Shown here: positions 3,201 to 54,811 of the stretch, one piece after another
Numbering within the stretch: position 1 is the stretch's first letter
How the letters are laid out: each line of letters opens with the position of its first letter
The notes under the pieces: generated by a model
Databases searched by the model: none
What the model was told of the DNA's origin: nothing
The model's input: the letters and a program-made list of their open reading frames with translations, nothing else
Virus record (IMG/VR): IMGVR_UViG_3300022932_000016
Span: 19,906 to 83,905 of that record
Direction: 5' to 3' (one strand)
DNA length: 64,000 bases
Origin: a virus
Taxonomy: Duplodnaviria; Heunggongvirae; Uroviricota; Caudoviricetes
Translations under genes and position numbers: made by a program

Positions 3201-4114
3201 CCAGTAAGACCTACAGATACGAGCTTTTGTTCGTAAGCGATAAGACTTGAGGTGTCGTACGGTGTTGAGTTCGCGTAAGTGTAAAGGTCATAGATTGCTT
3301 TACCAGCTGCTTCAGTACTCTTCAGGAGGCTTTCAAGACCAAGTTGAGCAGACTCGATTAGCGAGATTGTTTTAAGAATAGGAATAGTCGAGAAGACCGC
3401 AACTGCGGCAGCAAGACCAAGACCCATACGACCGATTTCACCAGTCGCGGTGCGAATTGAGTTACCGAATTGTAGTACGCTCTTGCTACCCTCTGATAGG
3501 TCACCGAGCTTAATCTTGTTGAAGACTTGTCGGAAGTCAGTCCATGATTCTTTTAGCACCGATGACTGGTTAGCCGCTTTTTCTGTTTCGTCTTCAATCT
3601 GCTTAATACCAGCTGCGATAGTTGGTGCAAGTGAAGAAATGCCACCGAATTGTTGACCGAGTTGGCTTCCCATAGCTGAAGCGGTATCTTGTAGCGACGT
3701 GCGCTGTCGTTCTAGCCATGTGGTAGTGATTGCGCCAGCTGTAGCCGCGTCTGCACCCGTTCGGGTCAGAGTGTCGCGGTACGAGTTAGCGGTTCGGTCA
3801 AGACCTCGGTATTGTACGTCGAGCTTCTGTAGCTCGTTTGCGATTGATGATTGTTGCTTTGCGTATTGTGCGATGTTTTGTGCGTTAAAGGCGTTTTGAG
3901 TGCCCTTTTGAACGCTTGAAAGGCCTTTGTTGATAGCTTCGATGTTCTTTGCAAAACCTGCAGTAAGCGCATCAGCAGAGCCCTTAAAGGCGTTGGTCAT
4001 CGCACGGTCGATACTCTTCCCTGTTTGTTCGGCCTGTTTCTCAACAGCAGCCAGCTCGTTCTTGAGTTTGGTTGCGTCACCAGTTAGAAGATATTTTATT
4101 TCGCGGTCGTTCAT
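239..4114 (-). CDS. tail tape measure protein (1291 aa)
   Basis: Very long ORF downstream of major tail protein and chaperones. N-terminal coiled-coil-like region and a hydrophobic middle. About 8-10 tandem ~33-aa W/F-rich repeats in the C-terminal third. Conserved C-terminal motif ARGGVVDQATLAMFGEDGREAVMPL typical of siphovirus TMPs. Confidence 0.93.
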   Translation of the reverse strand: MNDREIKYLLTGDATKLKNELAAVEKQAEQTGKSIDRAMTNAFKGSADALTAGFAKNIEAINKGLSSVQKGTQNAFNAQNIAQYAKQQSSIANELQKLDVQYRGLDRTANSYRDTLTRTGADAATAGAITTTWLERQRTSLQDTASAMGSQLGQQFGGISSLAPTIAAGIKQIEDETEKAANQSSVLKESWTDFRQVFNKIKLGDLSEGSKSVLQFGNSIRTATGEIGRMGLGLAAAVAVFSTIPILKTISLIESAQLGLESLLKSTEAAGKAIYDLYTYANSTPYDTSSLIAYEQKLVSVGLTGQQAFGVIQRVSDIGGAFGASSDQLDRFYYVLSQIFGAGKATGTDFLQIQNSLPGFISAIGEAMGKSAGEVRGAFGDGSVTSEVIVKALNNLTKAGGVAFQGAIKQSSTFAGILNNLQDNLKRVGLAFFGVTVTTDGMTVAVDGLYARIKNLFASILSFVENPLVVATFEKIGSAVGGLLNLLQQYPQVIAILGGLFLAFATDLISRIPFIGNLIGEIGYGTGLLVGLFAALVASSSAMQQALVSVLGIAIQFVQQNESLFRQLLGNFAQLLQVLGQGIAPALVIATRLFFGLAQAVLIGLNAVIQMATSIANFLGPSVTQAITLFVAFLAVGLAVTPVILGIAAAVLTLGRALVSTAGRVAIVIAALVALISLFGVFNSATPSTGPLDALGDIFDGITESTGNAATGIGDVTGALGGAGDAAKKATKQLAAFDKMNVINSPTGADAAGGGGGGLGDLGITEPVLPDFGALKDKLKGMLAGLDGLAPKSNWWDFLIIPAGVLAGLLQLRAWFPTFFKWAGLYAKAFIQDMFTLFKGLGPGIVNILKNIGPTILRVFTTLGPRIVAAFSEIGPAIGRFFVTFGPMLLRALPGILRAILTIVSSVVKFLGPVGLAIGLALTAIIALIFNWEAVSSWFTGVFNGIITFFTNLGAQIGEIFMLSLQGAFGPIPQIFASIVVVIIAVIATIVNALAALPAWVFTNVITPLGQFFGNLWMGISDAFILAWSVITQLIGLFANWVFVNVITPVAGFFVGLWQGIVAGVTAGFNSVMAFLSPIFAWIKAKVIDPIANAFSSLWNGIVGVASGIFSRIVSVLAPIFNWIYNNIIAPISNAFNQLASAIGTVFTNLKNSIVNVFSGILSIIKGVFNGIIDAINGVIKSINKIKVPDNVPGIGGLSPNFPTIPRLARGGVVDQATLAMFGEDGREAVMPLENNTGWIDELASKLNGQSKGSDGPTVINVYLDGNKVGGAISNSINDRSMVTGVNQIYV

Positions 4115-27891: not shown

Positions 27892-27921
27892 CTCCTGTGA
27901 TGTCACAGGGGCTTTATTTAT
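27892..27921 (+). terminator. rho-independent terminator between convergent genes
   Basis: CTCCTGTGA-TG-TCACAGGGG stem followed by GCTTTATTTAT. Confidence 0.65.
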
Positions 27922-29420
27922 GCACCGATGACTTCGATTTGTGAACCTGTGATCGCTGCTGCGTCAGCCAGCTTGACCGACTTAGTACCGAAAGTAGTAT
28001 CGACAGGGACCCCGAGAAGCACATCGTCTTCGTCTGGTATAGCCATCGTACCTGTTTTATTGTCAGAATCGTATACCACGCCATCACGAACGTCAGCTGG
28101 TGAGAGATTTGAGTCTGCATTTGTCAGGTTATCCCCGTCTGGTATAAACGTACCGTCTGGACTGAAAGTACCGTACCTGTAGATGATAGTCGCACCGTCT
28201 ACGATTTGAATTGGGCCGTAGTAGAACCGTGTTTTAGAGTTTTCGTTGATGTATGAGGTCACACCAGAAGCCCCAACGCGTAATGCACCAGTATTAGCTG
28301 TGAATGCCCAGTCGAGAACGGGTCGGGTTGCCATGTTGTCGACATAGATATTACCCTTGATCCATACAGTAGTTGCGGTTGAGCGAGAAATTGCTGTACC
28401 ACCGATACCAGTTGCGCTTTCGTAGTTAAGGCTAGGACCTGATCGAACGTCTCCATTGATAGTGAGAAGCTGACCATTTTGCATATCTATAGCTGGACCA
28501 CCTGATTGTGAGCTGTTACCGATACCACCTGTGACGTTGCCGTTGACGACTACAGTACAACCTGTAGCTGTAGAAGCAATCTGCATAGCGTAAGTGCTAG
28601 GGTTTTGACCACCTAATAGGTTACCGTTAAAAACAACCGATTTAGCTCGAATAATCATAATGACGATTGAACCACCGTTTGAGTTGGTAGTAGGGGACGC
28701 GTCACCAGTAAGTATAACGTCACTATTTGCGTTATCAATGTAGACAAGTACACCAGATTGGCCGCTTTGCTTAACCAGACTGGCTGTTACTGAGATGGTA
28801 TTTGCGAGCGTACCGATTACCGCGACAACACCTCCAGGGTTAGGTACTGAGTTTGTTGCGTGGAATGCAAGCGCGGTAACTGTGAGGTCGCCTGAAGATG
28901 TGTTGTAGATACCTGATGTCGTTTGCGTGTTTGTGATAGTACCGCTTACGTTAATAGTAACGTCTACGTCACTCGCATTGAGAACAAGTGAGGTTGCGAC
29001 CCCCGTTGCGCTTGAGTCACCAGTCCAGTTAGTCCCCGTCATTGATAATGTACCTGTCGCACCCGATAATAGGGACACGAACGCTGCTGCGGTTCCTGTG
29101 ATTGCACCAGCTGCGATAAGACCCGCATTGATTACTGAACCAGTCGCGGAGTAAGACGCATCTAGTTCGATTAGAGAAGATGTCGCTGTCAGAGCAAGGA
29201 TTAGCGAAACACTGCAGGTCACTGTGCGAGCCGTGCTACCCGTGAGAACAAACTTACCGCTACCAGTGTTTGAGAGCGACTGTACGGCTACGTTTTGGTC
29301 GATGGTAACTGTGTGACCAGTCAACGCTTGGGCAACGTCGTTTACGCCAGGGAGTACACCACCGCTCCATGTTGCGGGGTTAGACCAGTTTCCAGATGCT
29401 TGAGATGCGATATTTGCCAT
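27918..29420 (-). CDS. beta-helix tail fiber/tailspike-like protein, paralog 2
   Basis: N-terminus has a passenger/autotransporter-associated beta-strand-repeat-like motif (G-W-x-P-x-TW-GG-V-PG-x-D-V). Ser/Thr/Gly/Asn-rich repeats. Homologous to 29427-30827. Confidence 0.65.
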   Translation of the reverse strand: MANIASQASGNWSNPATWSGGVLPGVNDVAQALTGHTVTIDQNVAVQSLSNTGSGKFVLTGSTARTVTCSVSLILALTATSSLIELDASYSATGSVINAGLIAAGAITGTAAAFVSLLSGATGTLSMTGTNWTGDSSATGVATSLVLNASDVDVTINVSGTITNTQTTSGIYNTSSGDLTVTALAFHATNSVPNPGGVVAVIGTLANTISVTASLVKQSGQSGVLVYIDNANSDVILTGDASPTTNSNGGSIVIMIIRAKSVVFNGNLLGGQNPSTYAMQIASTATGCTVVVNGNVTGGIGNSSQSGGPAIDMQNGQLLTINGDVRSGPSLNYESATGIGGTAISRSTATTVWIKGNIYVDNMATRPVLDWAFTANTGALRVGASGVTSYINENSKTRFYYGPIQIVDGATIIYRYGTFSPDGTFIPDGDNLTNADSNLSPADVRDGVVYDSDNKTGTMAIPDEDDVLLGVPVDTTFGTKSVKLADAAAITGSQIEVIGA

Positions 29421-29426
29421 TGATTA

Positions 29427-30827
29427 TTACTCGCTTAGGGTGGCGATTTGACCACCAGTTATATTTGCTAGGTCGGGGTTGTCGAGAAGTGCTGTACCTA
29501 CAGTAGCATCAACGTCGACTCCTGCTCTTACTGAATCGGGACTAGGCACATTGAGGGTTCCTTCTATCCCCGTTGGGTAAGCAGTACCCTTACGAGTGTT
29601 ACTCACTGACGGACCTTGACCCTCAGCTTTGAGGTTGACCGCTGCACCAGTCCATGCTGGGTAGGCTGACGCTGATTGGTAGCCGATAATAAAGTAATTA
29701 CCGTCAGTGCGGACGAGCTTACCTGCAACCGCAGCCGCTGAACTGTATGCACCGATAGTATATGTGTTACCCGTGTGTGGTTCCCCCACTATAACAGGCG
29801 TATAACCATTGTTAATCGCGGTTTGAGTTCCATTTGATATGATATCCCCGTAGACCCGAATGTAGGCAGTAGATGCAGAAGCAGGAGTAATAAGCGGTGT
29901 AGTTGTCACACCTGTGGTTGCAGATGAGATAACGTCACCGTGTATTTCAGCGGTAAGAGGGCCGTTAAGTGCGAAACCAGGGCCTGTATATGTGTTGAGA
30001 ATATCACCGTAGACGTAAACGTATGCACGGTTGTTAAATGAAGCGAGGTTACCTAAGTTTGTCACTTTCATATCCCCGTTAACGATCAGCGTAGGTATAG
30101 GCATTGGCTGGTTGGTCACCGCTTGAGATGACGCTGTCGTCATTGTGAGAATGTAGGTGTTAGCAAGGTTTGGGGTCACCATATCACCGTTCCATGTAAA
30201 CGTACCAATAAATGCAGTGCCCATAGCAAACGCTGCGGGGGTTTGTAGCATAGTCCATGTAGTGTTGCTGGTCACGTTGAGTGTGAAGTAACTTGCAAGA
30301 CCCGCGTTATAAACGACCTGGCTGTTGCTTAGTGTCATATAGTTGAGGTTGAGCGTAATACCAGTACTAGCGGTTGCGGCTACGTTAATAAGAGCAGGCT
30401 CGTTACCTGAGTTGTTTGTGTCACCGTTGAATGTGTTAACGCTAATAGTGACCGTACCTGAAGCACCTGCGATGAAGCCAATGACTGAAAGCATTGATGA
30501 GCCAGTGTGAGCACCGATAGTTACCGTATCAGCTGTAATAACAGACCCAGTCGCAGAATATAAAGCCGTGAACTCGATAAAGTCAGAGTTTGTTGAACCG
30601 ACTGCCGTTCGCAGTAGTGTTGTGACGGTGAGGGTTCTTGGGGTACTACCTGTAATCTGTAGCACGGCAGCATTGGCGTTTTGAGTGAGGTTTGTAACCG
30701 TCACGTTTGTGTCGAGTGTAACAACGTGGTTGATGTTCACAGTATCAGCGGAGCCTGGAACTACACCACCCGTCCATGTAGACGGTGATGACCAAGGACC
30801 TGCTGCACCTGAAGTAATTGTAGCCAT
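29427..30827 (-). CDS. beta-helix tail fiber/tailspike-like protein, paralog 1
   Basis: MATITSGAAGPWSSPSTWTGGVVPGSADTVNI... aligns with the N-terminus of 27918-29420. Shared C-terminal G..VD.T.GT......A.ITG.QI motif. Confidence 0.65.
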   Translation of the reverse strand: MATITSGAAGPWSSPSTWTGGVVPGSADTVNINHVVTLDTNVTVTNLTQNANAAVLQITGSTPRTLTVTTLLRTAVGSTNSDFIEFTALYSATGSVITADTVTIGAHTGSSMLSVIGFIAGASGTVTISVNTFNGDTNNSGNEPALINVAATASTGITLNLNYMTLSNSQVVYNAGLASYFTLNVTSNTTWTMLQTPAAFAMGTAFIGTFTWNGDMVTPNLANTYILTMTTASSQAVTNQPMPIPTLIVNGDMKVTNLGNLASFNNRAYVYVYGDILNTYTGPGFALNGPLTAEIHGDVISSATTGVTTTPLITPASASTAYIRVYGDIISNGTQTAINNGYTPVIVGEPHTGNTYTIGAYSSAAAVAGKLVRTDGNYFIIGYQSASAYPAWTGAAVNLKAEGQGPSVSNTRKGTAYPTGIEGTLNVPSPDSVRAGVDVDATVGTALLDNPDLANITGGQIATLSE

Positions 30828-30839
30828 ATATCTATTCTA

Positions 30840-33800
30840 CTACGAGTAGGTCGCAGTAGCTCTGTTGTCCCATGAGTCGATGGCTGTCATTACCACGACT
30901 GGTGAAGTTAATGTTAATCGAGTGAGTGACCAACCACTTGTGGCTTCAGAAGTCGCAGAAGGTGCTGAACCCATGTAATCGTAGATACCAGATTGAGCGT
31001 GACGAATCTCACCTAATCCACCACCACCGCCCCCACCTGCTGAAGGAGCCCAGCGCAAACCATTTGTTGCGGTTGAGTCAGCGGTTAGAACGTAAGCGTC
31101 TGCACCGATTGGTAGAGGGACGGAGTTACCGACTGGGTTACCAACAACCACGTCACCCTTTGCGGTTGTAACCGCGCCACCAGCAACACCCGTGGCACCT
31201 ACTGGACCAGTATTACCAGTAGAACCGACTAGACCGTTTGGACCAGTCGCACCGATTGGACCAGTAGCACCAGGATCACCCTGCACACCTTGCACACCAG
31301 TGAAACCACGTAGACCTGAAGCACCCGATGGGCCAGTAGCCCCAGTTGGACCCGTTACGCCCGCACCAGTTGCACCCTGTGGCCCAGTAGCACCACCAGG
31401 AGAACCAGCAACACCAGTCGCACCTGCAGGGCCAGTCGCACCATTTGTACCAGCGACCCCTGTTGCACCACGTGGACCAGTTGCACCCACTGGGCCTTCT
31501 GCTGAGTTAGGGACGTAGATGAATGTGTAATCGTTGTTTGAGAACGCTGTACCTGACACTGGGGTAATATCTAATAGATACCAACCAGATTGAGGTACGA
31601 TGTCGTTGACTGCGATGACGTTCATTTGTGGTGAGCCCGCTGTTCGGTGCATGTATAGGTAACCCTTTGGAGATACCGTAGATGAATCAATCAATGTAAA
31701 TAGAGCAGAGCGGTCTTGACTAGCAGCATCAAGCGTGTCCATACGTAGCTTCGTAATTGAAGCGAACGCGGCATTGTCAGATGTGAACTTTCCTGTAGTA
31801 GGGTCAGCGTCTATAGCGGTGTCACCTGTGTATGAGTATGTGAACCCAGCAACCGCACCAGTCGCACCAGTTGGGCCAGTGTAACCTAATGCACCAAGAC
31901 CACCAGATACACCCGTAGCACCGACTGGACCAGTCGCACCTGTTATACCAGTAGCACCTGTTGAACCAGAACCAGTGGCGCCTTGTGGGCCAGTAAATCC
32001 TCGAACACCCGTTTCACCCTGTGGACCTGTCGCACCACCTGGAGTACCAGGAGTACCTGGCGTACCAGAAGCACCAGTCGCACCAATCAATAGAGCAGGA
32101 CCTAGGTCGCTCCAGTCAGAACCCGTCCAGACCCATGCGTGACCAGTATCGTTTGTAACGAAGATTTCACCGAGATTTGGTGTAGAAGGTAGAGCCGCGA
32201 AGTTTGCGACAGTACCCTTAATAATAAGACCAGGACCGATAGGACCAGTTGCCCCTGTTCGACCGATAGGACCAGTCGCACCTGTAGTACCCGCACCTGT
32301 TGAACCCGCAGGACCAGAAGGACCTGTTGGCCCAAGCACGCTACCTGTTGATTGCCAGAGTGAACCGTCCCAGATGTATAGGTCACCGTTAACGAGCCAT
32401 GCGTCACCAACTACGTTACCAGTAGAAGGCAGAGATTCAACATCAGGTTTTGACCCCTTGACTTCGATACCAACACCCGATGGACCAGTTGGACCCATTG
32501 GCCCTGTTTGACCATTTACACCGTTAGACCCTGTAGGACCTTGAATACCTGTTGCGCCCGTTCGTCCTAGAGGACCAGTTGCACCAGAAGCACCCGCGAT
32601 TCCAGCGAGACCCATATCTTGCCAAGCTGAACCGCTCCATACCCAGTTGTGCCCGTCATCTGCTGTGGTGTAGATGTCACCCGCAGTTGGGAGAGCAGGA
32701 AGTGAAGCGTAGTTAGCTACTACACCCTTGACACGTAGACCGATACCTGTCGCACCAGTGTTACCTAGGTTACCAGTAGCACCTTGTACACCCGTAAAGC
32801 CACGCACACCAGTAAGACCTTGAGGCCCTGTTGGACCAGTTGTACCTTGGTTACCTGTTGCACCCGTGAAACCGACTGTGATAGGACCGATATTGTCCCA
32901 TGTCGCTCCATTCCACAACCATGCTTCATTGTTAGGTTCGATTACAACGTAAATGTCACCTTGTTCGACACCCTCTAGACCGTAAAGGTCAAACTCCTCA
33001 ACGACAGTACCCTTAATTCGGGCACCTTCACCACGAGGACCAGTTGCCCCCGTGTTACCAGTTGCACCAGTGTTACCAGTTTGACCCTGAACACCCGTGA
33101 AACCTCTAACCCCAGTCCAACCTTGAGGACCAGTGTTACCAGACGCTCCTGTTGGACCCATAATGCGACCAACATTTTCCCAGCTGTCACCGTCCCACAT
33201 CCAGAGTTCACCATTAACCATCCAGCCATCACCGATTGTATTACCAGTAGAAGGAAGGAACTCAACACCTGTTTTTGTACCAAGAATGCGAACACCGACA
33301 CCTGTTGCCCCAGTTACACCTTGAGGACCTGTGAAACCTCGTACACCAGTGTTACCAGTTTGGCCGATTGCTCCAGTTACACCCGCACCAGTTGCACCTT
33401 GAGGACCAGTTGGGCCAACCATAGGACCGATGTCCATCCAAGAAGAACCGTTCCATGACCAACCGTGCCCCGTGTCAGCTGTAATGTAAACGTCACCCGT
33501 TGTGCCCGAGCCAGGAAGAGCTGCTGAGTTAGCAACAACACCCTTAATCGTGATACCCACACCAGTTGCCCCTGTCCCACCGATAGCACCCGTAGGACCA
33601 GATGGGCCAGTAGGACCGCTGAACCCGATGTCACCTTGCGGACCAGTAGGACCCGCGACACCAGTTGAACCACGACTGAAAGCTAAGAATGCGCCCGTAC
33701 CACCAGTACCACCATTCAATACCCATAACTCATAGTTTGAAGCACCAGTAGGCCCAGTTGTACCTTGGGGACCTGTAGCACCAGAAGGACCAGCAGGACC

Positions 33801-35501
33801 AGATTCACCTTGAACACCTTGTGGACCTGTAGCACCTGTCGTACCAGCTCCAGTTGCACCCGTGACTCCAGTGAAGCCGCGTACACCTGTTGCACCTGTA
33901 TAACCACGAACACCCGCAGGGCCAGTTGCACCTGTTTGACCTTGAGGACCTGTCGCACCAGTTCGCCCAGAACCAGTAGCACCGCTACCACCGACAGGGC
34001 CAGATGGACCTTCAGGGGCGACTGACACAATGTAGTCGTCCATTGAGATACCCTTGTAATAAATAACGTCATCGTTACCGATTTTGAATAGAGGGATTGA
34101 TCGTTCTAGGGTGAAGAAATAAGACTTAGTTTCGAGCTTGTCAGTCATCTTCACTTCGATTTGGTATGTGTTAGCTTCTGCGAATGTAGTTTCACCGTCA
34201 GCAAAGGTTGTAGCCGTGAAGTCAGGTACGGTTACGTTACCAGAAGTGTCGCTACTATTTGTAACATCGTCCCAAGAGCCCCAATCACCTGCAGTGGTTA
34301 GGTTACGAGAGCGGTATGAAACACCAGTGGTAGCATTTACCGCGTTCTTAGGTGTGCCAGAAATGGTTAGTGGTGAGAACCGACCACCGATTTGCATTTG
34401 TACTGCGTCAAAGTCGCCAGCACCTGAGTCAATACGTTCAGCATTAATGTTAAGAACTGGAGAGTTGTATGGTAGAAGATTTGCTGTCTTGCTTGCAAGG
34501 GTCATCTTGCCGCGTGAGTCTTTTGCGCTTACTTGAAAGTTGAAGTTATCACCGTAATTAGCAACGTCTAGAGAAACGTCGATGTCTTCATCGTCATAAG
34601 GAATGTTTACCGAGTTCCAAGGAGTAACAGCGAGGTACGAATCCATTGTTGCGTATTTATTCGCTGTGGCTGCTTGATCTGGGTATGTGATCGTAACGTG
34701 CGGTTCAGAGTAGCTCTGGACAAGGTATTGATCGTCACCTGTAATCGTAACAGTGTCGGGGTTGTTGTCGTAGTAGCCGAATGTAGTAAATGTAGGTTCG
34801 CCACCTACGATAGAAACAGTTCGGTCGATTGTTTGGTCAGAACCAAGACCGTTACCGATGTAGTAGCGGACAGTCGTAGAAGCGACATTCTTCATCGCAT
34901 TTCGAATTGCGTTTCGCTCAGCGGTGCTTAGTGTCCAGTTATAAGTTTGACCACCGTTCGCACCGAAGTTTCGCCATGCGTATTGAGTACCACCAGTAAT
35001 GCTAGGTAGCATGAAGAACCCAGTAACGGTGTTTCCTGCTGGGTTTGCGTAAGATACGCTAGGTGTACCCTCATCGTTGAAGTCAGAAGCACCCTGAATG
35101 TTAGGGTTACGAGGGATATTATCAAGACCGAAGTTACCACCGACATCTCGTGGGCCACCTGAGTTATTGTAGAGTGACCAACCAGAGCTGAAGTTGCCAC
35201 CGATGTAGATACCTTTTGTACCGTTGTCATCGTGTTGCACCCACGCTGAGAAAGAGTGAATGTTGTGCGTACCTGCGCCACGGGTTGTAGAACCACGAGA
35301 GAAGCTACCAACCTGACCGTTGATACTGATAGAACCAGACTCTGTGGCAGCAATTGAGGCACCACTAGGGATAATTAACTGAAGGGTGGCGTCAACACGT
35401 GAGCGGTTGTTTGGTATGTCAACGTATGAGCTCCAGACAATACGAAGCCCCCAGTTCGCGAAAGAACCTGAACCGTTACGTTGTGTTGATGAACCTGCCA
35501 T
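30840..35501 (-). CDS. tail fiber / anti-receptor protein with extensive collagen-like (G-X-Y, Thr-rich) repeats, 1553 aa
   Basis: N-terminal ~480-aa globular domain. Long GxT/GPTGP triple-helix repeats interrupted 6 times by a ~48-aa W-rich module. Conserved fiber-like C-terminus (KGDVVVGNPVGNSVPLPIGADAYVLTADSTATNGLRWAP). Confidence 0.85.
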   Translation of the reverse strand: MAGSSTQRNGSGSFANWGLRIVWSSYVDIPNNRSRVDATLQLIIPSGASIAATESGSISINGQVGSFSRGSTTRGAGTHNIHSFSAWVQHDDNGTKGIYIGGNFSSGWSLYNNSGGPRDVGGNFGLDNIPRNPNIQGASDFNDEGTPSVSYANPAGNTVTGFFMLPSITGGTQYAWRNFGANGGQTYNWTLSTAERNAIRNAMKNVASTTVRYYIGNGLGSDQTIDRTVSIVGGEPTFTTFGYYDNNPDTVTITGDDQYLVQSYSEPHVTITYPDQAATANKYATMDSYLAVTPWNSVNIPYDDEDIDVSLDVANYGDNFNFQVSAKDSRGKMTLASKTANLLPYNSPVLNINAERIDSGAGDFDAVQMQIGGRFSPLTISGTPKNAVNATTGVSYRSRNLTTAGDWGSWDDVTNSSDTSGNVTVPDFTATTFADGETTFAEANTYQIEVKMTDKLETKSYFFTLERSIPLFKIGNDDVIYYKGISMDDYIVSVAPEGPSGPVGGSGATGSGRTGATGPQGQTGATGPAGVRGYTGATGVRGFTGVTGATGAGTTGATGPQGVQGESGPAGPSGATGPQGTTGPTGASNYELWVLNGGTGGTGAFLAFSRGSTGVAGPTGPQGDIGFSGPTGPSGPTGAIGGTGATGVGITIKGVVANSAALPGSGTTGDVYITADTGHGWSWNGSSWMDIGPMVGPTGPQGATGAGVTGAIGQTGNTGVRGFTGPQGVTGATGVGVRILGTKTGVEFLPSTGNTIGDGWMVNGELWMWDGDSWENVGRIMGPTGASGNTGPQGWTGVRGFTGVQGQTGNTGATGNTGATGPRGEGARIKGTVVEEFDLYGLEGVEQGDIYVVIEPNNEAWLWNGATWDNIGPITVGFTGATGNQGTTGPTGPQGLTGVRGFTGVQGATGNLGNTGATGIGLRVKGVVANYASLPALPTAGDIYTTADDGHNWVWSGSAWQDMGLAGIAGASGATGPLGRTGATGIQGPTGSNGVNGQTGPMGPTGPSGVGIEVKGSKPDVESLPSTGNVVGDAWLVNGDLYIWDGSLWQSTGSVLGPTGPSGPAGSTGAGTTGATGPIGRTGATGPIGPGLIIKGTVANFAALPSTPNLGEIFVTNDTGHAWVWTGSDWSDLGPALLIGATGASGTPGTPGTPGGATGPQGETGVRGFTGPQGATGSGSTGATGITGATGPVGATGVSGGLGALGYTGPTGATGAVAGFTYSYTGDTAIDADPTTGKFTSDNAAFASITKLRMDTLDAASQDRSALFTLIDSSTVSPKGYLYMHRTAGSPQMNVIAVNDIVPQSGWYLLDITPVSGTAFSNNDYTFIYVPNSAEGPVGATGPRGATGVAGTNGATGPAGATGVAGSPGGATGPQGATGAGVTGPTGATGPSGASGLRGFTGVQGVQGDPGATGPIGATGPNGLVGSTGNTGPVGATGVAGGAVTTAKGDVVVGNPVGNSVPLPIGADAYVLTADSTATNGLRWAPSAGGGGGGGLGEIRHAQSGIYDYMGSAPSATSEATSGWSLTRLTLTSPVVVMTAIDSWDNRATATYS

Positions 35502-35522: not shown

Positions 35523-38051
35523 TTATACTGGGTCTCTAATGTAATATGAGAGACCGTCGCTGTCCTGTCGAATGAATACTCGTGAGCTTGGGTAATATGT
35601 GTCACCATTTACAGTCATATTGTTCATTTCGATAGTGTCATTGTTTGCGCGGAATGCGACTTCGTTGTTCGAGTCGTATGAGGCGAACTCGCTCGGTGTC
35701 ATCATTGTGTATGACCCTACGTTCTCATCTGAGTATACCCGAATACCGCGTGTGTCAATCTGGACACTTGTGTTAAGGATTTCACCGTTGAACTGAGACC
35801 AGACTTGTCGGTAAACACCTGTTACTAACATTGGGTCAGTTATATAGAATGCGGACGCACCGTCTGATTCGATTTCGAGGTCGAAGTATACGTCATTGCT
35901 TATTATAGCCTCTGTATAAAAGAAAGTCCAAGTGTAGATTTGCCCTGAAAGCATGTCGAACTCGTAGTTGTCTACTGAGTTTTTCAGACGAATATGAGCA
36001 TTACCTGTAGTCGTTTTGCTTGCGTAGACTGAGAATGAGTAAGTACCACCGAGTGTCACAGGGATACGCTGGCTTATCTTCTTGCTGCTGCCTGCAATCA
36101 TAATCGAGTGACCAGATACCGCACCGTATGCAAGTGAAGATGGAGCGTCTTGCTCTTCGAGCGTGCCCACACCAGTTTCTGTCCAGTGGGACAGGGCATT
36201 TCCTTCGCGAGAGAAGCCAACAGAGTTTTGGATTAAGTTACCGCCACCAGTTGATTGAATCGTTGATGTGATGTTTTCGAGGGTTTGCAGAACTTGTGTG
36301 AACTGTGAGGTTGTTTCATTCGCAAACGACGTGTACTCAGCCACGAGAGATGTGATGCTGTTGTTTTGGTGGTCTACCTGGATCTTTGTGTTGTAGAGCG
36401 TGGTCAAGACATTACCAGCAGTTTGTTGGTTTGTCGTACCGTCGTCAAATGGAACTGAAACGAGAGTTTCTTTGATGCTACCACCCTCCATGACGATACC
36501 GATTTCGTTGATGAACATATCGTATTCGTCGCCACCGTTATCCATAGTAATTACGTCACCTACGTCATAGACACATAGACCGATTGTAGTAGCTTGACCT
36601 GTGTAGTAAACAACACCGTCATAAATATCTTCAAAGAGGTTTTCGATGAAAGCATTGCGGTCGGGGTCCATGATCCAGTTGTTAACAATGCGGTAAGTCG
36701 TAAGACCATCTGCTAGGGCTGATGTCTCGTCGGTCACCACGATGTTGTCGTCTTGTGGTTGTCGAGATAGCGATAGTTGGTTGACGATACCAGTTGAAGC
36801 GATTACCTTGAGCTTGCTGAGTGTGCTGTGGTCGAGCGTGTCGACTGGGTTCATGTCGATTGGGGTGAACTGAAGTTGGTTTTCTGGCGTGATGCGAGCT
36901 GTTGAGCCTGTCGCTTCTGCGATGTCCGCGATGAAGTCACGAACCATGTAGTTGTTGATGTTCGCGAATGCGTCAGAAGGGAGTGAATAGTCGAGGTTTG
37001 GTAGTGTTGGATCGTATACCGCGCTACCATTTGTGATGATAGATGTTGCTACTTCTTCGATAAGACCCTCAATTGTGATTGGGTAAACGAGGTTCAGACC
37101 ACCGTAAGGTGTTGAAGCGGCTACGACAAGCGCGTCATCAATGGTGATTGTAGTGCTAGGTGCGTCTTCGTCTTTTTCGACCTTCGTTACTTCCCCACGG
37201 TGAAGGATAAAACGGTCGAAGTAAGCCAGGTCAGCGTTGTTGCTAACTTGTGGTGCAAGCACGAGGTCGTCTAAGTAGTAGTCGATGTCAGCAGAACCGT
37301 TACCAGTTTGCAAGTACAAATCCATGACAGGTGATTGCATTAGTCGAACTCGGTCTTGAGCTTCGAAGTTGATCGTATATTGAGTCCAGGTTGTGCTTGT
37401 TGAGATAGCGATGTTTGGTGTTTCGTCCCATGTACCGTCAGCCTGTAGGTAAACAACCGTACCGTCTGCTTGTTGCATTGTCAAAACGAGGGTTAGAACA
37501 CCGTCTGCTGTAGATTTGTGCCAGAAAGAGAAGGTGTATAGACCTTCAGGTGTAAGCCGTATCATGTTAGGGCTGTCATTCGCGTTACTAACACCAGCTG
37601 TAACATAATTGTCGTCTGCGTCAACGTGTAGCCGAAGTGATTTCGTACCACTGTGGTGTTCAGAAGCTGTTATCGAAGCAAGACTTTCGCCACCTTCTGT
37701 GCCTAAGTACCAACCAGACACTGTAGATGTTGGCCATGTGTCAATTGACTCGAGATTGCCGTTATAAATAACTTCAAAAGTCTCTTTTTGCACGAGAAGT
37801 GCTGAGTCTGCGCTCAATCCTTCTTTGTCTTCAACGATACCGTGTATCTTTAGAACATTTCGTGAACCAACTGCTGAGTTGAATGAGCCAGCTGTGGTGA
37901 TATTGCTTGAGATGATTGTAGGAGCGTCAGTACCTTGCTCGTAGTATTCGACAGAGTCGATATTTGTTTCAGAATAGAAAGCAGTAGCGTAGTGAATACG
38001 CTTGATAGTCTGCTTCATTGTTCGGAGCTTGTCTGGTCGGACGGTCTTCAT
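35523..38051 (-). CDS. tail-tip/baseplate structural protein (putative adhesin or receptor-binding component)
   Basis: 842-aa protein immediately upstream of the fiber genes in the same operon. Confidence 0.55.
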   Translation of the reverse strand: MKTVRPDKLRTMKQTIKRIHYATAFYSETNIDSVEYYEQGTDAPTIISSNITTAGSFNSAVGSRNVLKIHGIVEDKEGLSADSALLVQKETFEVIYNGNLESIDTWPTSTVSGWYLGTEGGESLASITASEHHSGTKSLRLHVDADDNYVTAGVSNANDSPNMIRLTPEGLYTFSFWHKSTADGVLTLVLTMQQADGTVVYLQADGTWDETPNIAISTSTTWTQYTINFEAQDRVRLMQSPVMDLYLQTGNGSADIDYYLDDLVLAPQVSNNADLAYFDRFILHRGEVTKVEKDEDAPSTTITIDDALVVAASTPYGGLNLVYPITIEGLIEEVATSIITNGSAVYDPTLPNLDYSLPSDAFANINNYMVRDFIADIAEATGSTARITPENQLQFTPIDMNPVDTLDHSTLSKLKVIASTGIVNQLSLSRQPQDDNIVVTDETSALADGLTTYRIVNNWIMDPDRNAFIENLFEDIYDGVVYYTGQATTIGLCVYDVGDVITMDNGGDEYDMFINEIGIVMEGGSIKETLVSVPFDDGTTNQQTAGNVLTTLYNTKIQVDHQNNSITSLVAEYTSFANETTSQFTQVLQTLENITSTIQSTGGGNLIQNSVGFSREGNALSHWTETGVGTLEEQDAPSSLAYGAVSGHSIMIAGSSKKISQRIPVTLGGTYSFSVYASKTTTGNAHIRLKNSVDNYEFDMLSGQIYTWTFFYTEAIISNDVYFDLEIESDGASAFYITDPMLVTGVYRQVWSQFNGEILNTSVQIDTRGIRVYSDENVGSYTMMTPSEFASYDSNNEVAFRANNDTIEMNNMTVNGDTYYPSSRVFIRQDSDGLSYYIRDPV

Positions 38052-42386: not shown

Positions 42387-43781
42387 CTATTTATGTTTGA
42401 ATCGTTCGGTGCCATCTGACTTGAACGACTTGAATTGATTTGTGACACCCGCAGTGATAACCCTACCAGCGTAGAAGGTTCGCAGCAAAAAGCCATAAAT
42501 TGGCATTTCGACTGTGATTTTCTTACCGCTATCGAAGTATCGGGTGTAAATACCCCTACAAATGTCGATAATGTCTTCACGAGAGCCACCGACTACACCG
42601 CAGTTGAGTATGTGTTGGCGGTTTCGCGCGGTGAAAGTGCGATATGGTTCGACGGTTGAGTGCTGTCGCAACCATCTACTTTGTGAAGGCACACCCTGCT
42701 CGATACCAGAATAAATCTTTCCAGGTTGCATATCTCTGAACGGGTTATTGACCACCTCGACATCGGTTGAATCTACGCAGAAAACATTATCAATTTCGGG
42801 GTGCTGTTTCAGGTAGCGGTAAATGCTAAGCCACCGCTGAAAGTACGGGTTTAATACGCTTTCAACTTTTATGTGGGTGACCTGCTCGGTATCGGGTTCG
42901 TCGAAGCAATCGTGCAGAAGCACTAGCTTTTCGCCCTGCAATGAATCAATGAGCGGCTTCATCGCGCTATAGTCTGCTGACCAGTTCACCTTGCGTTGAG
43001 GGTCTTCGTGCGAAGTAAAGTAAGAAGCGATAATTACGTTATTCATTCCTGCACTATCAGACTTCTTAACCTCTCGGTAATCAATGTACTCGCTGGATTT
43101 TAGCGATTCGCGGTATAATTTCGCGTTGTTCGCGAGACCAGTTCGACGTGCGTGCTGTTCGATTGAACTTGAAACCTCTTGGTATTCGTCCATGCTGTAA
43201 ATAAGGTTCGAACTATCGGGCACGTCCATTGCTCTGAACGTAGTAAGGCCAGCGTTGAAGATGCGATTAGTCCATGCGGTGTGTTCAAACATAGAGATAC
43301 CGAATCGCGGGTCTAAGCCACCCACCTTTTCAAGCACTACCTTGTTAGCATAAATCATGCAACCGCGAGTATGCGAGTAAGCCACGATTGTGCTGTCGCG
43401 ATATATCTCAAGCATATCGGTTAGTTGTTTTGCTGGGTTATTTGCGAACTCCCGAAACTGGTACATAAGGTGGGGCTCTTCGCTATCGACGTACGGTTTC
43501 CACCAGTCTTTCACCTTTGGGTATGTGTCGTCATCGAACAGGAAGAAGTCAGTCGCACCGCGTTCTTCGAGCAATTCGAGACATTTGTTTTTGACCCTTG
43601 CGACACCACCCCGTTCAGGGAAAACGTAATCAGCTTCTTTGGGCGCATTTTCATCGTGGTCTGATACAACGACAAGCACGGCACCTTTTGGCAGATACTT
43701 TTTAATTTCTTTGTATGTTTTCTTGAAAACATCTGGTCTTTTGTAGGTTGATATTGCAACCCCGACTACAGGTTCATTCAT
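42387..43781 (-). CDS. glycosyltransferase (GT-A/GT2-like N-terminal domain plus additional C-terminal domain)
   Basis: VVGVAISTYKRPD...FLFDDDTYP (DxD). Confidence 0.65.
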   Translation of the reverse strand: MNEPVVGVAISTYKRPDVFKKTYKEIKKYLPKGAVLVVVSDHDENAPKEADYVFPERGGVARVKNKCLELLEERGATDFFLFDDDTYPKVKDWWKPYVDSEEPHLMYQFREFANNPAKQLTDMLEIYRDSTIVAYSHTRGCMIYANKVVLEKVGGLDPRFGISMFEHTAWTNRIFNAGLTTFRAMDVPDSSNLIYSMDEYQEVSSSIEQHARRTGLANNAKLYRESLKSSEYIDYREVKKSDSAGMNNVIIASYFTSHEDPQRKVNWSADYSAMKPLIDSLQGEKLVLLHDCFDEPDTEQVTHIKVESVLNPYFQRWLSIYRYLKQHPEIDNVFCVDSTDVEVVNNPFRDMQPGKIYSGIEQGVPSQSRWLRQHSTVEPYRTFTARNRQHILNCGVVGGSREDIIDICRGIYTRYFDSGKKITVEMPIYGFLLRTFYAGRVITAGVTNQFKSFKSDGTERFKHK

Positions 43782-51900: not shown

Positions 51901-53307
51901 TTACCACCTGATGTATGCGCCAACAGGCTTTGGTTTGAACGCGTTGTATGCCATGTTAGCAATCATCATCGCGTCAGCCCAGTCAGGCGACCGACCGATT
52001 TTCTTGCGAAGAATGCTTTTTTTGACGACCCGCGTTTTCCCTGTGTCGAGATCGTAGGTGTGAGCAATAAGCTCTTTCTTAATTTCTGATATGTTGAAGT
52101 CTTTAGAACCCTCGAGTAGCTTCATACGTCCAGCGTCTAGGTCGAGCATAAGGTTGTAGAAGCCGTCTGAGCGCGTTTGTTGTGTCGCGATGTATACATT
52201 TACCTTCCAGCCCTTTGCGCGCAGTGCGTCGCGTGCTGAAGCCCCCACACCGTTACCCTCAATGGTGATGTACTTAGCAACTGCAGGAGTGAACCCATTT
52301 TTCATAGCAAAGTCGATGAGTTTCTCTGCAATAGCGTAGCCGATAGCTTGGTCGCTACCTTTTGGTGATTTGATTTCGATAGCTTTGACACCGACACCGT
52401 TTTCAACGAGTACCGCGATAGTTGCGTCCTTACCGCTGTCTGAAAGGTCGACACCGATTGCTTTGTTGAACTTCTCGTCTACTGGCTCGTCTAGGTCTGC
52501 TTCGAATGTCGTAGCTTTGTCGAGCAGTTTCATAGGGAACAGCGAGTCGTCGTCATCGAGATAATTCCAGTCCCCGTCAAGCAAACGCTTACGTTCTTGT
52601 GGTGGTAGCTTCTTCAAGTTTTCGATGTAGTTCGGGTCGATGAACGGGTTAGAGGTTACGGTTGCACGAATGTACACGTCGTATGCTGGCACTTTGACTC
52701 CATCTACCCAGACTTGACCGTTCTCCCACTTCTGAACTGGCCCCATACCACGCTTTTCATAAGGGTCATAGAACTCTTGACGAAGCCAGTTAGTTGAGGG
52801 GTTACACGCAAGCAGGGTTGTGCCGACTAGACCAAACTCGCGATTCATCCAGCGTCCTACACGTGAAGAAAGCACATCAACTGCGCGCTTGTCTGTTTCA
52901 CCCGCTTCGTCAACGAGTGCGATTGTAAGTTCAAGTGAACCCAGACTTTCGAAGTCAGGGTCTGATGGCTTTGCAGTTAGATCAAGAAACTGAACCCGCG
53001 AACCGTTACGATATTCAAGAAAGTTTTCACGACCGTTAATAGTGTAGTCGTCTTGGGTGATACCTAATGCGGGGTGCACCTTTGAAAGCAGTGTCGAGAG
53101 TGTTGTTTGTCGCAAGCTCATCAACTCTTTTCGAGCTAGACCAATGCGTATACCAGCGTACTTTCGTGACATAAGCGCAACAATAAGACATATAAAAAAT
53201 GACTTACCACCACCCGCACCACCACCATAAAGAATACGGGTACTTTGCGGGTTTAAGAACTCGTTATAAGCGAGCAACTGCGCGTCTGAAAATACGACAT
53301 CTGCCAT
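51901..53307 (-). CDS. terL: terminase large subunit
   Basis: Walker A (GGGAGGGKS). Nuclease motifs (GVDLSDSGKDATIAV...SPDWADAMMIA). Confidence 0.9.
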   Translation of the reverse strand: MADVVFSDAQLLAYNEFLNPQSTRILYGGGAGGGKSFFICLIVALMSRKYAGIRIGLARKELMSLRQTTLSTLLSKVHPALGITQDDYTINGRENFLEYRNGSRVQFLDLTAKPSDPDFESLGSLELTIALVDEAGETDKRAVDVLSSRVGRWMNREFGLVGTTLLACNPSTNWLRQEFYDPYEKRGMGPVQKWENGQVWVDGVKVPAYDVYIRATVTSNPFIDPNYIENLKKLPPQERKRLLDGDWNYLDDDDSLFPMKLLDKATTFEADLDEPVDEKFNKAIGVDLSDSGKDATIAVLVENGVGVKAIEIKSPKGSDQAIGYAIAEKLIDFAMKNGFTPAVAKYITIEGNGVGASARDALRAKGWKVNVYIATQQTRSDGFYNLMLDLDAGRMKLLEGSKDFNISEIKKELIAHTYDLDTGKTRVVKKSILRKKIGRSPDWADAMMIANMAYNAFKPKPVGAYIRW

Positions 53308-53896: not shown

Positions 53897-54811
53897 TTAT
53901 ACTTTCTTATGCTCTTCGCGAAGGATAAGCGGAGCGGTATTACGCCAGTTGATTCGGTGGTGAATGCGAAACGCGTTGTTGTCTTTCTCTTTACCTGCAC
54001 CTTTTATAGCTGAGGTATTGTAGAGAACCGAGAACTTTGCACCTGACGGGTGAGTAATAATTGTGTACGCGGTCTTGGTATATGTACCGAGCGATTTGTA
54101 CATCTCAGACATACCGCCAGTGTTTGTCTGGGTGGTCTTCTGATTAAGCGCGATGAATGCTGTCGTCAAGAACAAGAACCCTTGGTGTGCGAGCGACGTG
54201 TAGGTGTTTACGTCTTCATTGATACGACCGACAAACTTGAACCGTCTGTCTGTCGAGCAAATGAAGCTGTTCATCACTTTGCGTCTGAACTGATCGGAGA
54301 CCATTTTCGAACCACCGCCACCGATATAGTCACCAGACTGTGCCATACAGAGTGAGTACATCATGGGTACTGACTTGAAATAGTCGAGCATTACGTCAAA
54401 TACTTTATCGAGGGTCTGCTCTTCTGGCAGTGGTGAAAGCATAAGCGATGAGTATTCGATGTTTTCGTTCATTCGCCACCTGAAACTATCGTAGTCGTCA
54501 TCAAGCTGGATAAAGTACTTGTAACCGAGCTGTTCTGCAATGTCAAAGGACGCGTTGCGAGCGTAGAAAATCGTTCGTCGCTCACCTGAGTTGTCGACTT
54601 CATCGAAACGCTCTGCTATTTCATTTTTGCTAAAGGTTACGACCCTATCATCACCCCATATTCTGCGGTACTCGAGAAGGGTTGCATCTTCAGTATCCAC
54701 GACTAACTTCCAATCACCTGTGTACCCGTGACGCTTGAGCGTGTTTACGGTTACTTGGTTATTCGGTCGCCCGTGGGTCAGGATCAGTGCTACGAAGTTT
54801 TTGTTTTCCAT
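53897..54811 (-). CDS. hypothetical protein, possible nucleotide-sugar transferase-like (DxD)
   Basis: VALILTHGRPN...QLDDDYD. Weak call. Confidence 0.3.
   Translation of the reverse strand: MENKNFVALILTHGRPNNQVTVNTLKRHGYTGDWKLVVDTEDATLLEYRRIWGDDRVVTFSKNEIAERFDEVDNSGERRTIFYARNASFDIAEQLGYKYFIQLDDDYDSFRWRMNENIEYSSLMLSPLPEEQTLDKVFDVMLDYFKSVPMMYSLCMAQSGDYIGGGGSKMVSDQFRRKVMNSFICSTDRRFKFVGRINEDVNTYTSLAHQGFLFLTTAFIALNQKTTQTNTGGMSEMYKSLGTYTKTAYTIITHPSGAKFSVLYNTSAIKGAGKEKDNNAFRIHHRINWRNTAPLILREEHKKV

What the first reader, a model, noticed from the sequence alone, without database searches (positions are those of the whole stretch)
32100..33700. Collagen-like fiber punctuated by six copies of a ~48-aa Trp-rich module
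Within the 1553-aa fiber, the long G-X-Y runs (mostly G-x-T and GPTGP) are interrupted six times by a repeating non-collagen module. Its consensus is G-[TV]-V-A-N-x-x-x-L-P-x-x-G-x-x-G-D-x-Y-x-x-x-D-x-G-H-x-W-x-W-x-G-S-x-W-x-D-x-G. One example is GVVANSAALPGSGTTGDVYITADTGHGWSWNGSSWMDIGP. Regularly alternating triple-helix and small globular units are unusual. They may be hinge or ligand-binding beads along the fiber. I do not recognise the module as a named family.
Basis: seen in the sequence. Interest (0 to 1): 0.65.

Follow-up and report, generated by a model that had tools for sequence, protein, structure and literature searches.

The report
Collagen-like phage fibre with beta-sheet nodes
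A 1553-residue phage tail fibre really does alternate collagen-like triple-helix stretches with six copies of a small Trp-rich beta-sheet module; the module has no family name, but the same design is common in phage fibres, so this is an ordinary member of a poorly curated class.

Summary
ORF 30840-35501 (- strand, 1553 aa) holds about 534 residues of Gly-X-Y repeat. Six 42-50 aa non-collagen modules interrupt it at aa 650-1139 (window 32085-33554). A profile built only from foreign sequences finds exactly these six (40-65 bits) and nothing else in the window.

The module profile matches 8,721 cluster representatives. These include tail-fibre proteins of isolated phages (phiTE gp215 with seven copies, phi92 gp151, 4MG, CR3). 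An analogous design, collagen linker plus "3-beta domain" repeated ten times, is published for phage BK5-T.

The module is absent from Pfam and NCBIfam. Its only weak link is to DUF2793 (hhalign probability 79%).

Close relatives have the same fibre with three modules instead of six.

Best reading: these are trimeric structural nodes that register and stabilise short triple-helix segments. Node-plus-collagen cassettes of about 90 aa set the fibre length. Trimerization is inferred, not shown.

Verdict: a new member of a known kind, of modest interest.

The parts
30840..35501 (-). Fibre gene, 1553 aa plus stop codon
   Evidence: ORF list. Pfam Collagen PF01391 at 177.6 bits in 12 stretches. PHROG tail-fibre families phrog_3904 and phrog_819, among others.
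34011..35501 (-). N-terminal non-collagen domain (aa 1-497), probably the virion or tail anchor
   Evidence: phrog_372 'tail protein', E 1.1e-43 over aa 11-475. No Pfam or PDB sequence hit. 88-89% identical in three IMG/VR relatives.
33555..34010 (-). First collagen-like region (aa 498-649). It contains a short, different interruption, NYELWVLNGGTGGTGAFLAFSR, at aa 589-610 (window 33672-33737).
   Evidence: Gly-X-Y parsing. A similar 'SAYE..GF.G...W..SLKG' insert occurs in phiTE gp215 and in 51 of 155 family proteins.
33417..33554 (-). Module 1 (aa 650-695), subtype A: ITIKGVVANSAALPGSGTTGDVYITADTGHGWSWNGSSWMDIGPMV
   Evidence: External HMM 64.7 bits. AF2 pLDDT 87 with four strands.
33159..33293 (-). 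Module 2 (aa 737-781), subtype B: VRILGTKTGVEFLPSTGNTIGDGWMVNGELWMWDGDSWENVGRIM
   Evidence: External HMM 62.9 bits. Same four-strand fold with pLDDT >90 in the three-module model.
32874..33023 (-). Module 3 (aa 827-876), the divergent copy: ARIKGTVVEEFDLYGLEGVEQGDIYVVIEPNNEAWLWNGATWDNIGPITV
   Evidence: External HMM 40.6 bits. Same fold in the three-module model.
32613..32738 (-). Module 4 (aa 922-963), subtype A
   Evidence: External HMM 48.8 bits. 52% identical to module 1. Absent from relatives L006-L008.
32334..32468 (-). Module 5 (aa 1012-1056), subtype B
   Evidence: External HMM 64.0 bits. 49% identical to module 2. On its own it finds 194 phage records by tblastn. Absent from relatives L006-L008.
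32085..32228 (-). Module 6 (aa 1092-1139), subtype A
   Evidence: External HMM 53.2 bits. Absent from relatives L006-L008.
32229..33416 (-). Span that holds the five collagen-like spacers between modules: aa 696-736, 782-826, 877-921, 964-1011 and 1057-1091 (35-48 aa each). In window coordinates: 33294-33416, 33024-33158, 32739-32873, 32469-32612 and 32229-32333.
   Evidence: Gly-X-Y parsing. The module start-to-start period is 80-95 aa.
31851..32084 (-). Collagen-like region, aa 1140-1217
31497..31850 (-). 118-aa non-collagen domain (aa 1218-1335), unrelated to the module
   Evidence: No Pfam hit. Only the collagen part of the C-terminal third hits PDB sequences. 62% identical in relatives.
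31173..31496 (-). Collagen-like region, aa 1336-1443
   Evidence: Best Pfam Collagen stretch at aa 1381-1438.
30840..31172 (-). C-terminal region (aa 1444-1553) plus stop codon. It has a GDVVVG...LPIGADAYVLTADS..GLRWA motif, a Gly7 run and a 57-aa tail. It is the presumed distal, receptor-binding end.
   Evidence: No Pfam hit. 64% identical in relatives. The receptor-binding role is inferred from position only.

Best explanation
The gene encodes a long homotrimeric collagen-like tail fibre of an uncultured tailed phage.

Each of the six modules is a small four-stranded antiparallel beta-sheet domain. The proposal is that the three copies at the same level of the trimer pack around the fibre axis into a compact beta 'node'. 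These nodes would act as in-line trimerization and registration points. They would nucleate and clamp the flanking Thr-rich Gly-X-Y segments of 35-48 residues, which lack hydroxyproline. This would divide a shaft of about 150 nm into independently folding rods of 10-14 nm.

Node plus collagen spacer forms a cassette of about 90 aa, roughly 15 nm. Gain or loss of cassettes tunes fibre length. Receptor recognition would be left to the C-terminal domains.

Shown:
- the six copies
- the wide family
- the confident predicted fold
- its nearest structural neighbours
- the 3-versus-6 copy-number difference among relatives

Inferred:
- that the modules trimerize on the axis
- that they nucleate or stabilise the triple helix
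For: 1. Six genuine copies sit directly in phase with the Gly-X-Y runs. The junctions are conserved...G-x-G-[hydrophobic]-x-[hydrophobic]-x-G at entry and ...G-x-x-x-G-P-x-G at exit.

2. AF2 with 130 homologous modules gives mean pLDDT 87.3 and strands at 5-10, 24-28, 33-37 and 42-47. Modules 1-3 in one chain each reach pLDDT >90 with the same topology, while the linkers fall below 50.

3. The nearest solved folds are parts of trimeric fibres and spikes, or collagen trimerization units:
Foldseek TM-scores to the collagen XV/XVIII domains are 0.5-0.58. In GVE2 ORF18 the motif VATFADIATTYPNPQHGDTVMV...VYRYENGQWNL lies between an Ala/Asn coiled coil and the beta-helix.

4. Conserved positions are Gly, Pro and aromatic or aliphatic residues (G8, L16, P17, G23, D24, Y26, W35, W37, G39, W42, G46). 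The loops vary. This is the pattern of a structural core or interface rather than a shared ligand site.

5. The module occurs in fibres of phages with unrelated hosts: enterobacteria, Ralstonia, Agrobacterium, Campylobacter, Bacteroides, Synechococcus, Gordonia, Lactobacillus and crAss-like phages. It lies between collagen spacers in 281 cases, other spacers in 333 and in tandem in 42. In one protein it lies between Ala-rich coiled-coil segments. So it goes with trimeric shafts in general.

6. Three IMG/VR relatives share the N-terminal domain (88-89% identity), the 118-aa domain and the C-terminus. Their fibre is 1289 aa with three modules. The missing 264 aa equals modules 4-6 with their spacers.

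7. Published AF2 trimer models of an analogous design show the 3-beta domains as trimeric units on the fibre axis. In BK5-T Tal a collagen linker plus '3-beta domain' is repeated ten times (PMC9692632 and PMC9437275).
Against: - No trimer model could be computed. The single-chain three-module model gives no confident inter-module packing (pTM 0.36).
- Trp and Tyr richness is also typical of carbohydrate-binding sites.
- I could not inspect coordinates to see which face the aromatic residues occupy.
- No experimental data exist for any member found.
Confidence: 0.55

Rival explanations
1. The modules are lectin-like adhesion beads. Each trimeric or monomeric module would bind a host surface glycan weakly, so six of them along the shaft would give multivalent, reversible first contact.
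For: - The module is aromatic-rich (three conserved Trp/Tyr positions plus Tyr26), as in many carbohydrate-binding modules.
- The neighbouring upstream gene carries a CBM_4_9 domain, so glycan binding is part of this adsorption apparatus.
- Two conserved acidic or amide positions (D24, D/N44) could take part in binding.
Against: - The conserved residues are the same in phages of very different hosts, while the surface loops vary.
- Close relatives do with half as many modules while keeping the distal domains.
- The same domain sits as a single copy at the neck of tailspikes, where the enzyme domain does the binding.
Confidence: 0.15
2. The modules are mainly hinges. They interrupt the stiff triple helix, so that the fibre can bend at six defined points.
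For: - Non-collagen interruptions are known to give flexibility in animal collagens (general knowledge).
- The collagen-to-module junctions contain G-x-G and variable 2-5 residue linkers.
- The eCIS and phage literature invokes collagen shafts for flexibility (PMC12923769).
Against: - A confidently folded, conserved 45-aa beta-domain is far more than a hinge needs.
- The same protein already has 1-2 residue breaks in the Gly-X-Y pattern (VT, TT, RT, ST), which would serve as kinks.
- This reading is not exclusive of the node model, because bending could occur at the junctions.
Confidence: 0.15
3. The repeats have no function of their own. They would be residue of recombination between fibre genes, tolerated as filler.
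For: Fibre genes are mosaic. The block with modules 4-6 is present or absent among relatives. Spacer lengths in the family vary widely, with a 10-90% range of 14-78 aa.
Against: The copies have diverged to 24-52% identity yet keep every core position. The family numbers thousands and keeps the same motif. This indicates purifying selection on the fold.
Confidence: 0.05

Closest known systems
Collagen-like tail fibre proteins of isolated phages that carry the same module: Pectobacterium phage phiTE gp215, Escherichia phage phi92 gp151, phage 4MG, and the Cronobacter CR3/CR9/PBES02 fibres
   Same: They have the same module by HMM. phiTE gp215 has seven copies at 39-63 bits, set between Gly-X-Y runs. 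Module 5 alone finds 194 phage records. The predicted folds superpose at TM 0.8-0.9. Some also share the SAYE..W..SLKG-type insert.
   Different: The N-terminal anchor and C-terminal domains differ. There is no nucleotide similarity, and protein identity is below 42% and confined to the repeat region. None of these proteins has an experimentally determined structure or function. The phiTE cryo-EM paper does not mention collagen. The phi92 paper lists gp151 only as an AF3-predicted fibre candidate of unknown role.
Collagen-like linker plus '3-beta domain' repeats in Tal extensions of lactococcal and streptococcal siphophages (BK5-T has ten repeats; also DT1 and TP-778L). Source: Goulet et al. 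2022, PMC9692632 and PMC9437275.
   Same: The architecture is the same. Short trimeric collagen-like linkers alternate with small beta-domains of about 45-60 aa along a phage adhesion protein, and this extends its length.
   Different: It is a different domain family. The module HMM does not match BK5-T Tal (E 1) or DT1 Tal (E 0.09). Three strands are reported there, against four predicted here. The repeats there are near-identical tandem copies, whereas here the copies are old and diverged.
N-terminal domain of the Geobacillus virus E2 ORF18 tailspike (PDB 7CHU), and the neck or anchor domains of the Acinetobacter and CBA120 tailspikes
   Different: It is a single copy between a coiled coil and a beta-helix enzyme domain, not repeated and not next to collagen. 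The sequence match is marginal (3.5 bits). The aligned range in 7CHU was not reported by the tool.
DUF2793 (Pfam PF10983), for example the N-terminal 'thigh' domain of the JBD30 receptor-binding protein gp54 (PDB 8RK3/8RK4)
   Different: The match is below Pfam's threshold: 0 of 6 window modules and 2 of 130 family members, with best E 0.008. DUF2793 is longer, has large insertions and packs around an alpha-helical bundle. It is not associated with collagen.
Trimerization domains of the multiplexin collagens XV and XVIII (PDB 3N3F, 3HON/3HSH, 9BNB)
   Different: There is no sequence similarity (8-16% identity), and the Foldseek E-value is about 1. It is a terminal single domain in animal collagens, not an in-line repeat. 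Any relationship would be convergence.

Membership tests
Collagen triple helix repeat (Pfam PF01391) | Uninterrupted Gly-X-Y repeats that score above Pfam's gathering threshold | tested here: met
   177.6 bits against a cut-off of 27.2, in 12 stretches. 534 residues lie in Gly-X-Y runs of at least 3 triplets.
Unnamed module family of the phiTE gp215 / phi92 gp151 type | Significant match to a profile built from modules of other proteins, with the core L-P...G-D-x-[YW]...[WY]-x-W-x-G-x-x-W-x-[DN]-x-G | tested here: met
   Six domains at 40.6-64.7 bits with an external-only HMM. The family has 8,721 representatives at E<=1e-3 and 1,314 at E<=1e-10.
Unnamed module family of the phiTE gp215 / phi92 gp151 type | Small all-beta fold shared with other members | tested here: met
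   AF2 pLDDT 87. Foldseek against BFVD gives 41 hits at E<=1e-3 with TM 0.72-0.90, in proteins annotated as tail fibre or collagen repeat.
   No such family for the whole protein. None for the single modules at E<=10. None for 130 family members at E<=1.
DUF2793 (Pfam PF10983) | Score above Pfam's gathering threshold | tested here: not met
   0 of 6 window modules match. 2 of 130 family members match, with best E 0.0083.
DUF2793 (Pfam PF10983) | Remote homology by profile-profile and fold comparison with a solved member (JBD30 gp54) | tested here: inconclusive
'3-beta domain' of lactococcal and streptococcal phage Tal (Goulet et al. 2022) | Sequence relationship to the DT1 and BK5-T repeat units | tested here: not met
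   The module HMM gives E 0.09 against DT1 Tal and E 1 against BK5-T Tal. The sequences are visibly different.
'3-beta domain' of lactococcal and streptococcal phage Tal (Goulet et al. 2022) | Three antiparallel strands in about 60 aa | tested here: not met
   Four strands are predicted in about 45 aa. The description of the 3-beta domain comes from PMC9437275.
'3-beta domain' of lactococcal and streptococcal phage Tal (Goulet et al. 2022) | Alternates with collagen-like linkers along a phage adhesion protein | tested here: met
Multiplexin (collagen XV/XVIII) trimerization domain | Shared fold | tested here: inconclusive
Multiplexin (collagen XV/XVIII) trimerization domain | Forms a stable homotrimer that nucleates the adjacent triple helix | not testable with these tools
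This needs AF-Multimer or biophysics.

The most novel reading that the evidence does not exclude
The module may be an unrecognised and very widespread in-line trimerization and registration domain for collagen-like and other trimeric phage shafts. It has at least 8,700 clusters at 50% identity and is missing from Pfam and NCBIfam. It would be a prokaryotic-virus counterpart, by convergence, of the multiplexin NC1 trimerization unit, and distantly derived from the same stock as DUF2793 and tailspike neck domains. If so, it would explain how phages fold shafts of 100-200 nm that lack hydroxyproline, by working in short clamped segments. It would also offer a compact 45-residue 'staple' for engineered collagen materials.
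Probability: 0.4. Interest if true: 0.5.

Novelty: new member of a known kind. Interest (0 to 1): 0.33.

Why it matters
For this window the result is mainly a clarification. The fibre is a normal representative of a large class of collagen-like phage fibres.

Two points have wider use:
- A domain present in thousands of phage fibre proteins, including those of well-studied phages (phi92, phiTE, rV5-like), has no family model and no description in the literature I could search. Annotation pipelines therefore label these proteins only as 'collagen triple helix repeat'. A curated model would improve fibre annotation.
- If the node hypothesis holds, the module is a natural solution to folding and registering short triple helices without hydroxyproline. 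That is relevant to recombinant collagen design. The cassette structure (3 versus 6 units in close relatives) would be a simple way for phages to tune fibre reach.

Tried and rejected
- **Nucleotide search.** Megablast of the gene against 50,697 phage records gave no match.
- **Word-indexed protein search.** The six-module profile gave only 5 short hits, because the word filter limits it. The exhaustive HMM search was needed.
- **PDB sequence search, six-copy profile.** Only chance beta-hairpin matches appeared (designed 'Cake' propellers, villin).
- **PDB sequence search, 130-copy profile.** This gave marginal hits to PhiKZ gp184 and JBD30 gp54. PhiKZ gp184 is an inner-capsid protein (PMC11297242). 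I treat that hit as chance.
- **Linked trimer.** A Gly-Ser-linked trimer of collagen-module-collagen, with a matching alignment, was meant to mimic AF-Multimer.
- **Natural three-module segment.** Used instead, it confirmed the fold of modules 1-3 but gave no confident packing (pTM 0.36).
- **afdb50 fold library.** Not available.
- **Pa223 capsid spike gp52.** The phi92 paper says it resembles gp151. That similarity concerns a triple beta-helix and a TNF-like knob, not this module.
- **Host assignment.** The exact protein is on record only in assemblies of a public sequencing run, SRR7967959, so no host can be named.
- **Fixed structural period.** Collagen spacer lengths in the family are broad (median 32 aa, 10-90% range 14-78 aa). 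Regular spacing is a feature of this protein, not of the family.
Full report
**What is there**

The finding lies inside one long ORF on the minus strand, 30840-35501, encoding 1553 aa. Pfam sees only the collagen triple-helix repeat (PF01391, 177.6 bits, 12 stretches). PHROGs place the protein among tail-fibre families. Its first 475 residues match phrog_372 'tail protein' (E 1e-43).

Parsing the Gly-X-Y register gives this domain order:
- an N-terminal non-collagen domain (aa 1-497)
- collagen runs with a short 22-aa insert (aa 589-610)
- six non-collagen modules of 42-50 aa at aa 650-695, 737-781, 827-876, 922-963, 1012-1056 and 1092-1139, separated by collagen spacers of 35-48 aa
- more collagen
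- an unrelated 118-aa domain (aa 1218-1335)
- collagen again
- a 110-aa C-terminal region

In all, 534 residues lie in Gly-X-Y runs, about 150 nm if triple-helical at 0.286 nm per residue. Thr dominates the Y position (81 times) and Ala/Pro the X position.

**Is the repeat real?**

Yes. The six copies align with invariant G, L, G, W, G, W and G columns. I built an HMM from 124 modules taken only from other proteins. It recovers exactly these six segments at 40.6-64.7 bits and nothing else in any of the six reading frames of the window.

The copies are old, at 24-52% amino-acid and 47-64% nucleotide identity, so this is not a recent tandem duplication. They fall into two subtypes. Copies 2 and 5 have a shorter beta2-beta3 hairpin ('VNGDLYIWDG'). 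Copy 3 is divergent. Both subtypes are also present in phiTE gp215, so the split is ancient.

**How common is it?**

It is not.
- An exhaustive HMM search of 1.84 billion cluster representatives with the six-copy profile returns 8,721 proteins at E<=1e-3, 1,314 at E<=1e-10 and 125 at E<=1e-30. Up to 15-22 stretches occur per protein.
- In the 155 proteins in hand (the 150 listed from that search plus 5 short hits) I count 814 modules. Of these, 597 are flanked by Gly-X-Y on at least one side.
- tblastn of the whole fibre, and of module 5 alone, finds fibres of isolated phages. They include phiTE, phi92 (gene 151), 4MG, phAPEC8/rV5-like phages, CR3/CR9/PBES02, Erwinia and Ralstonia jumbo phages, Agrobacterium Atu_ph07, Campylobacter phages and Bacteroides phage Versailles.
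- phiTE gp215 has seven copies between collagen runs.
- Foldseek against predicted viral structures adds Synechococcus, Gordonia and crAss-like phages, with TM-scores of 0.72-0.90.

The module is not tied to collagen alone. Among adjacent module pairs in the 155 proteins, 281 have collagen spacers, 147 mixed, 186 non-collagen and 42 are tandem. One protein has the core motif between Ala-rich coiled-coil segments.

**Is it a named family?**

No.
- No Pfam family matches single modules, even at E<=10.
- Scanning 130 diverse members individually gives only scattered chance hits. The most frequent, on 2 of 130 members, is DUF2793 at E 0.008.
- NCBIfam gives only collagen adhesin models, below their cut-offs.

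**Literature**

The phiTE cryo-EM paper does not mention collagen or gp215. The 2026 phi92 paper lists gp151 only as an AlphaFold3-predicted fibre candidate of uncharacterised function. I found no description of this module.

The architecture as such has been described. Goulet and colleagues report collagen-like linkers associated with a ~60-aa '3-beta domain' in streptococcal phage Tal proteins (PMC9437275). They report a collagen linker plus 3-beta domain 'repeated 10 times' in lactococcal phage BK5-T Tal (PMC9692632). I checked both proteins. Their repeat units are a different sequence family.

**Structure**

AlphaFold2 on module 1, with the 130-sequence alignment, gives mean pLDDT 87.3 and four strands with a short helical turn after strand 1. 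A second run on the natural segment aa 638-890 gives the same topology for modules 1-3, each at pLDDT >90. The collagen linkers are unconfident, as expected for a single chain.

Foldseek against the PDB finds nothing significant. The best full-length superpositions are the collagen XV/XVIII trimerization domains (TM 0.5-0.58).

The JBD30 paper describes the gp54 N-terminal domain as peripheral beta-sheets around a trimeric helical bundle. It notes homologues in those same tailspikes, which anchor the spike to the baseplate (PMC11445458).

**Conservation pattern**

In the 130-member alignment the informative columns are Gly (turns), L16-P17, G23-D24, Y26, V/I28, W/Y35, W37, G39, W42, D/N44, G46 and the G-P-x-G re-entry into collagen. 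The loop between L-P and G-D and the beta2-beta3 hairpin vary in sequence and length. This looks like a conserved core or interface with variable surfaces.

**Relatives**

The N-terminal domain finds three IMG/VR contigs at 88-89% identity. Their fibre is 1289 aa with the same domain order but only three modules. The missing 264 aa corresponds to modules 4-6 with their spacers. The 118-aa domain and the C-terminus are retained at 62-64% identity. So the module-plus-spacer cassette, about 88-90 aa, is a unit of length variation between otherwise equivalent fibres.

**Interpretation**

The best-supported reading is that the modules are structural trimer nodes. Three four-stranded sheets, one per chain, would pack on the fibre axis. 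They would set the register of, and stabilise, the short Thr-rich triple-helical segments on either side, in the way that foldon or multiplexin NC1 domains stabilise short collagen peptides (general knowledge). Cassette number would set fibre length.

The supports are:
- conserved in-phase junctions
- association with trimeric shafts of several kinds
- fold neighbours that are trimerization or neck domains
- conservation that does not depend on the host
- the 3-versus-6 variation

The weak point is that trimerization itself is inferred.

The rivals are lectin-like adhesion beads, hinges and neutral filler. They are less likely but not excluded. The hinge role could coexist with the node role.

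**Verdict**

This fibre is a new member of a known kind of phage protein. The worthwhile residue is a curation and biophysics lead: a very abundant, unmodelled domain that may be a natural collagen 'staple'.

Noticed in passing
window 30840-35501, aa 530, 539, 719, 797, 898, 1165, 1396: The heptad G-[VL]-R-G-[FY]-T-G recurs seven times inside the collagen runs. It is also present in the IMG/VR relatives and in some other family members. A conserved Arg/aromatic pair inside a triple helix could be a stabilising or binding motif.
   Followed up: no
window 33672-33737 (aa 589-610): A seventh interruption of the collagen, of a different kind: NYELWVLNGGTGGTGAFLAFSR. It resembles the 'SAYE[IL]A..GF.G...W..SLKG' insert repeated in phiTE gp215. 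51 of 155 module-bearing proteins have it. It is probably a second in-line element of these shafts.
   Followed up: partly
window 31497-31850 (aa 1218-1335): A 118-aa non-collagen domain sits between two collagen regions. It has no Pfam or PDB sequence match and is 62% identical in relatives.
   Followed up: partly
window 30840-31172 (aa 1444-1553): The C-terminal region has the motif GDVVVG..LPIGADAYVLTADS..GLRWA, then a run of seven Gly and a 57-aa tail. The L-P..G.D.Y core loosely echoes the start of the module. There is no Pfam hit.
   Followed up: no
L006, L007, L008 (IMG/VR contigs), fibre ORF from position 6001: Close relatives of the phage carry the same fibre with three modules instead of six (1289 aa). 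The difference equals modules 4-6 plus their spacers.
   Followed up: yes
window 29427-30827 and 27918-29420 (- strand): Two paralogous ORFs of 466 and 500 aa lie directly downstream of the fibre. They are 38% identical over the first 149 aa, with an N-terminal G.WS.P.TW.GGV.PG motif. They have no PHROG or Pfam family. They may be further adsorption proteins.
   Followed up: partly
window 35523-38051 (- strand): The 842-aa ORF directly upstream of the fibre has a CBM_4_9 carbohydrate-binding domain (E 1.2e-6, above the Pfam cut-off). Its C-terminal part matches tail-fibre PHROGs.
   Followed up: partly
window 42387-43781 and 53897-54811 (- strand): These are glycosyltransferase genes. One matches the PHROG for beta-glucosyl-HMC-alpha-glucosyltransferase (E 2.5e-60), which suggests hypermodified phage DNA. 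Whether either could glycosylate the Thr-rich collagen, as happens with BclA-type collagens, was not examined.
   Followed up: no
window 239-4114 (- strand) versus 30840-35501 and 51901-53307: The tape-measure gene lies about 27 kb downstream of the fibre gene on the same strand. The large terminase lies about 16 kb upstream of the fibre. The structural genes are therefore widely dispersed rather than in one compact module.
   Followed up: no
window 31192-31518, 33081-33458, 34138-34536 (+ strand), and the short - strand ORFs inside the fibre gene: The mechanical ORFs that overlap the fibre gene, such as the Pro/Val/Ala-rich 108-aa ORF on the + strand, are by-products of the repetitive Gly-X-Y coding sequence. 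They are not likely genes.
   Followed up: no
L005 5287-7458 (Geobacillus virus E2 ORF18, PDB 7CHU): The tailspike has a long N-terminal GDYA / Ala-Asn-rich repeat region, presumably a coiled coil. A single copy of the module-like motif follows at aa 214-254, before the pectin-lyase domain. This gives a solved structure in which the trimer-interface question could be checked.
   Followed up: partly
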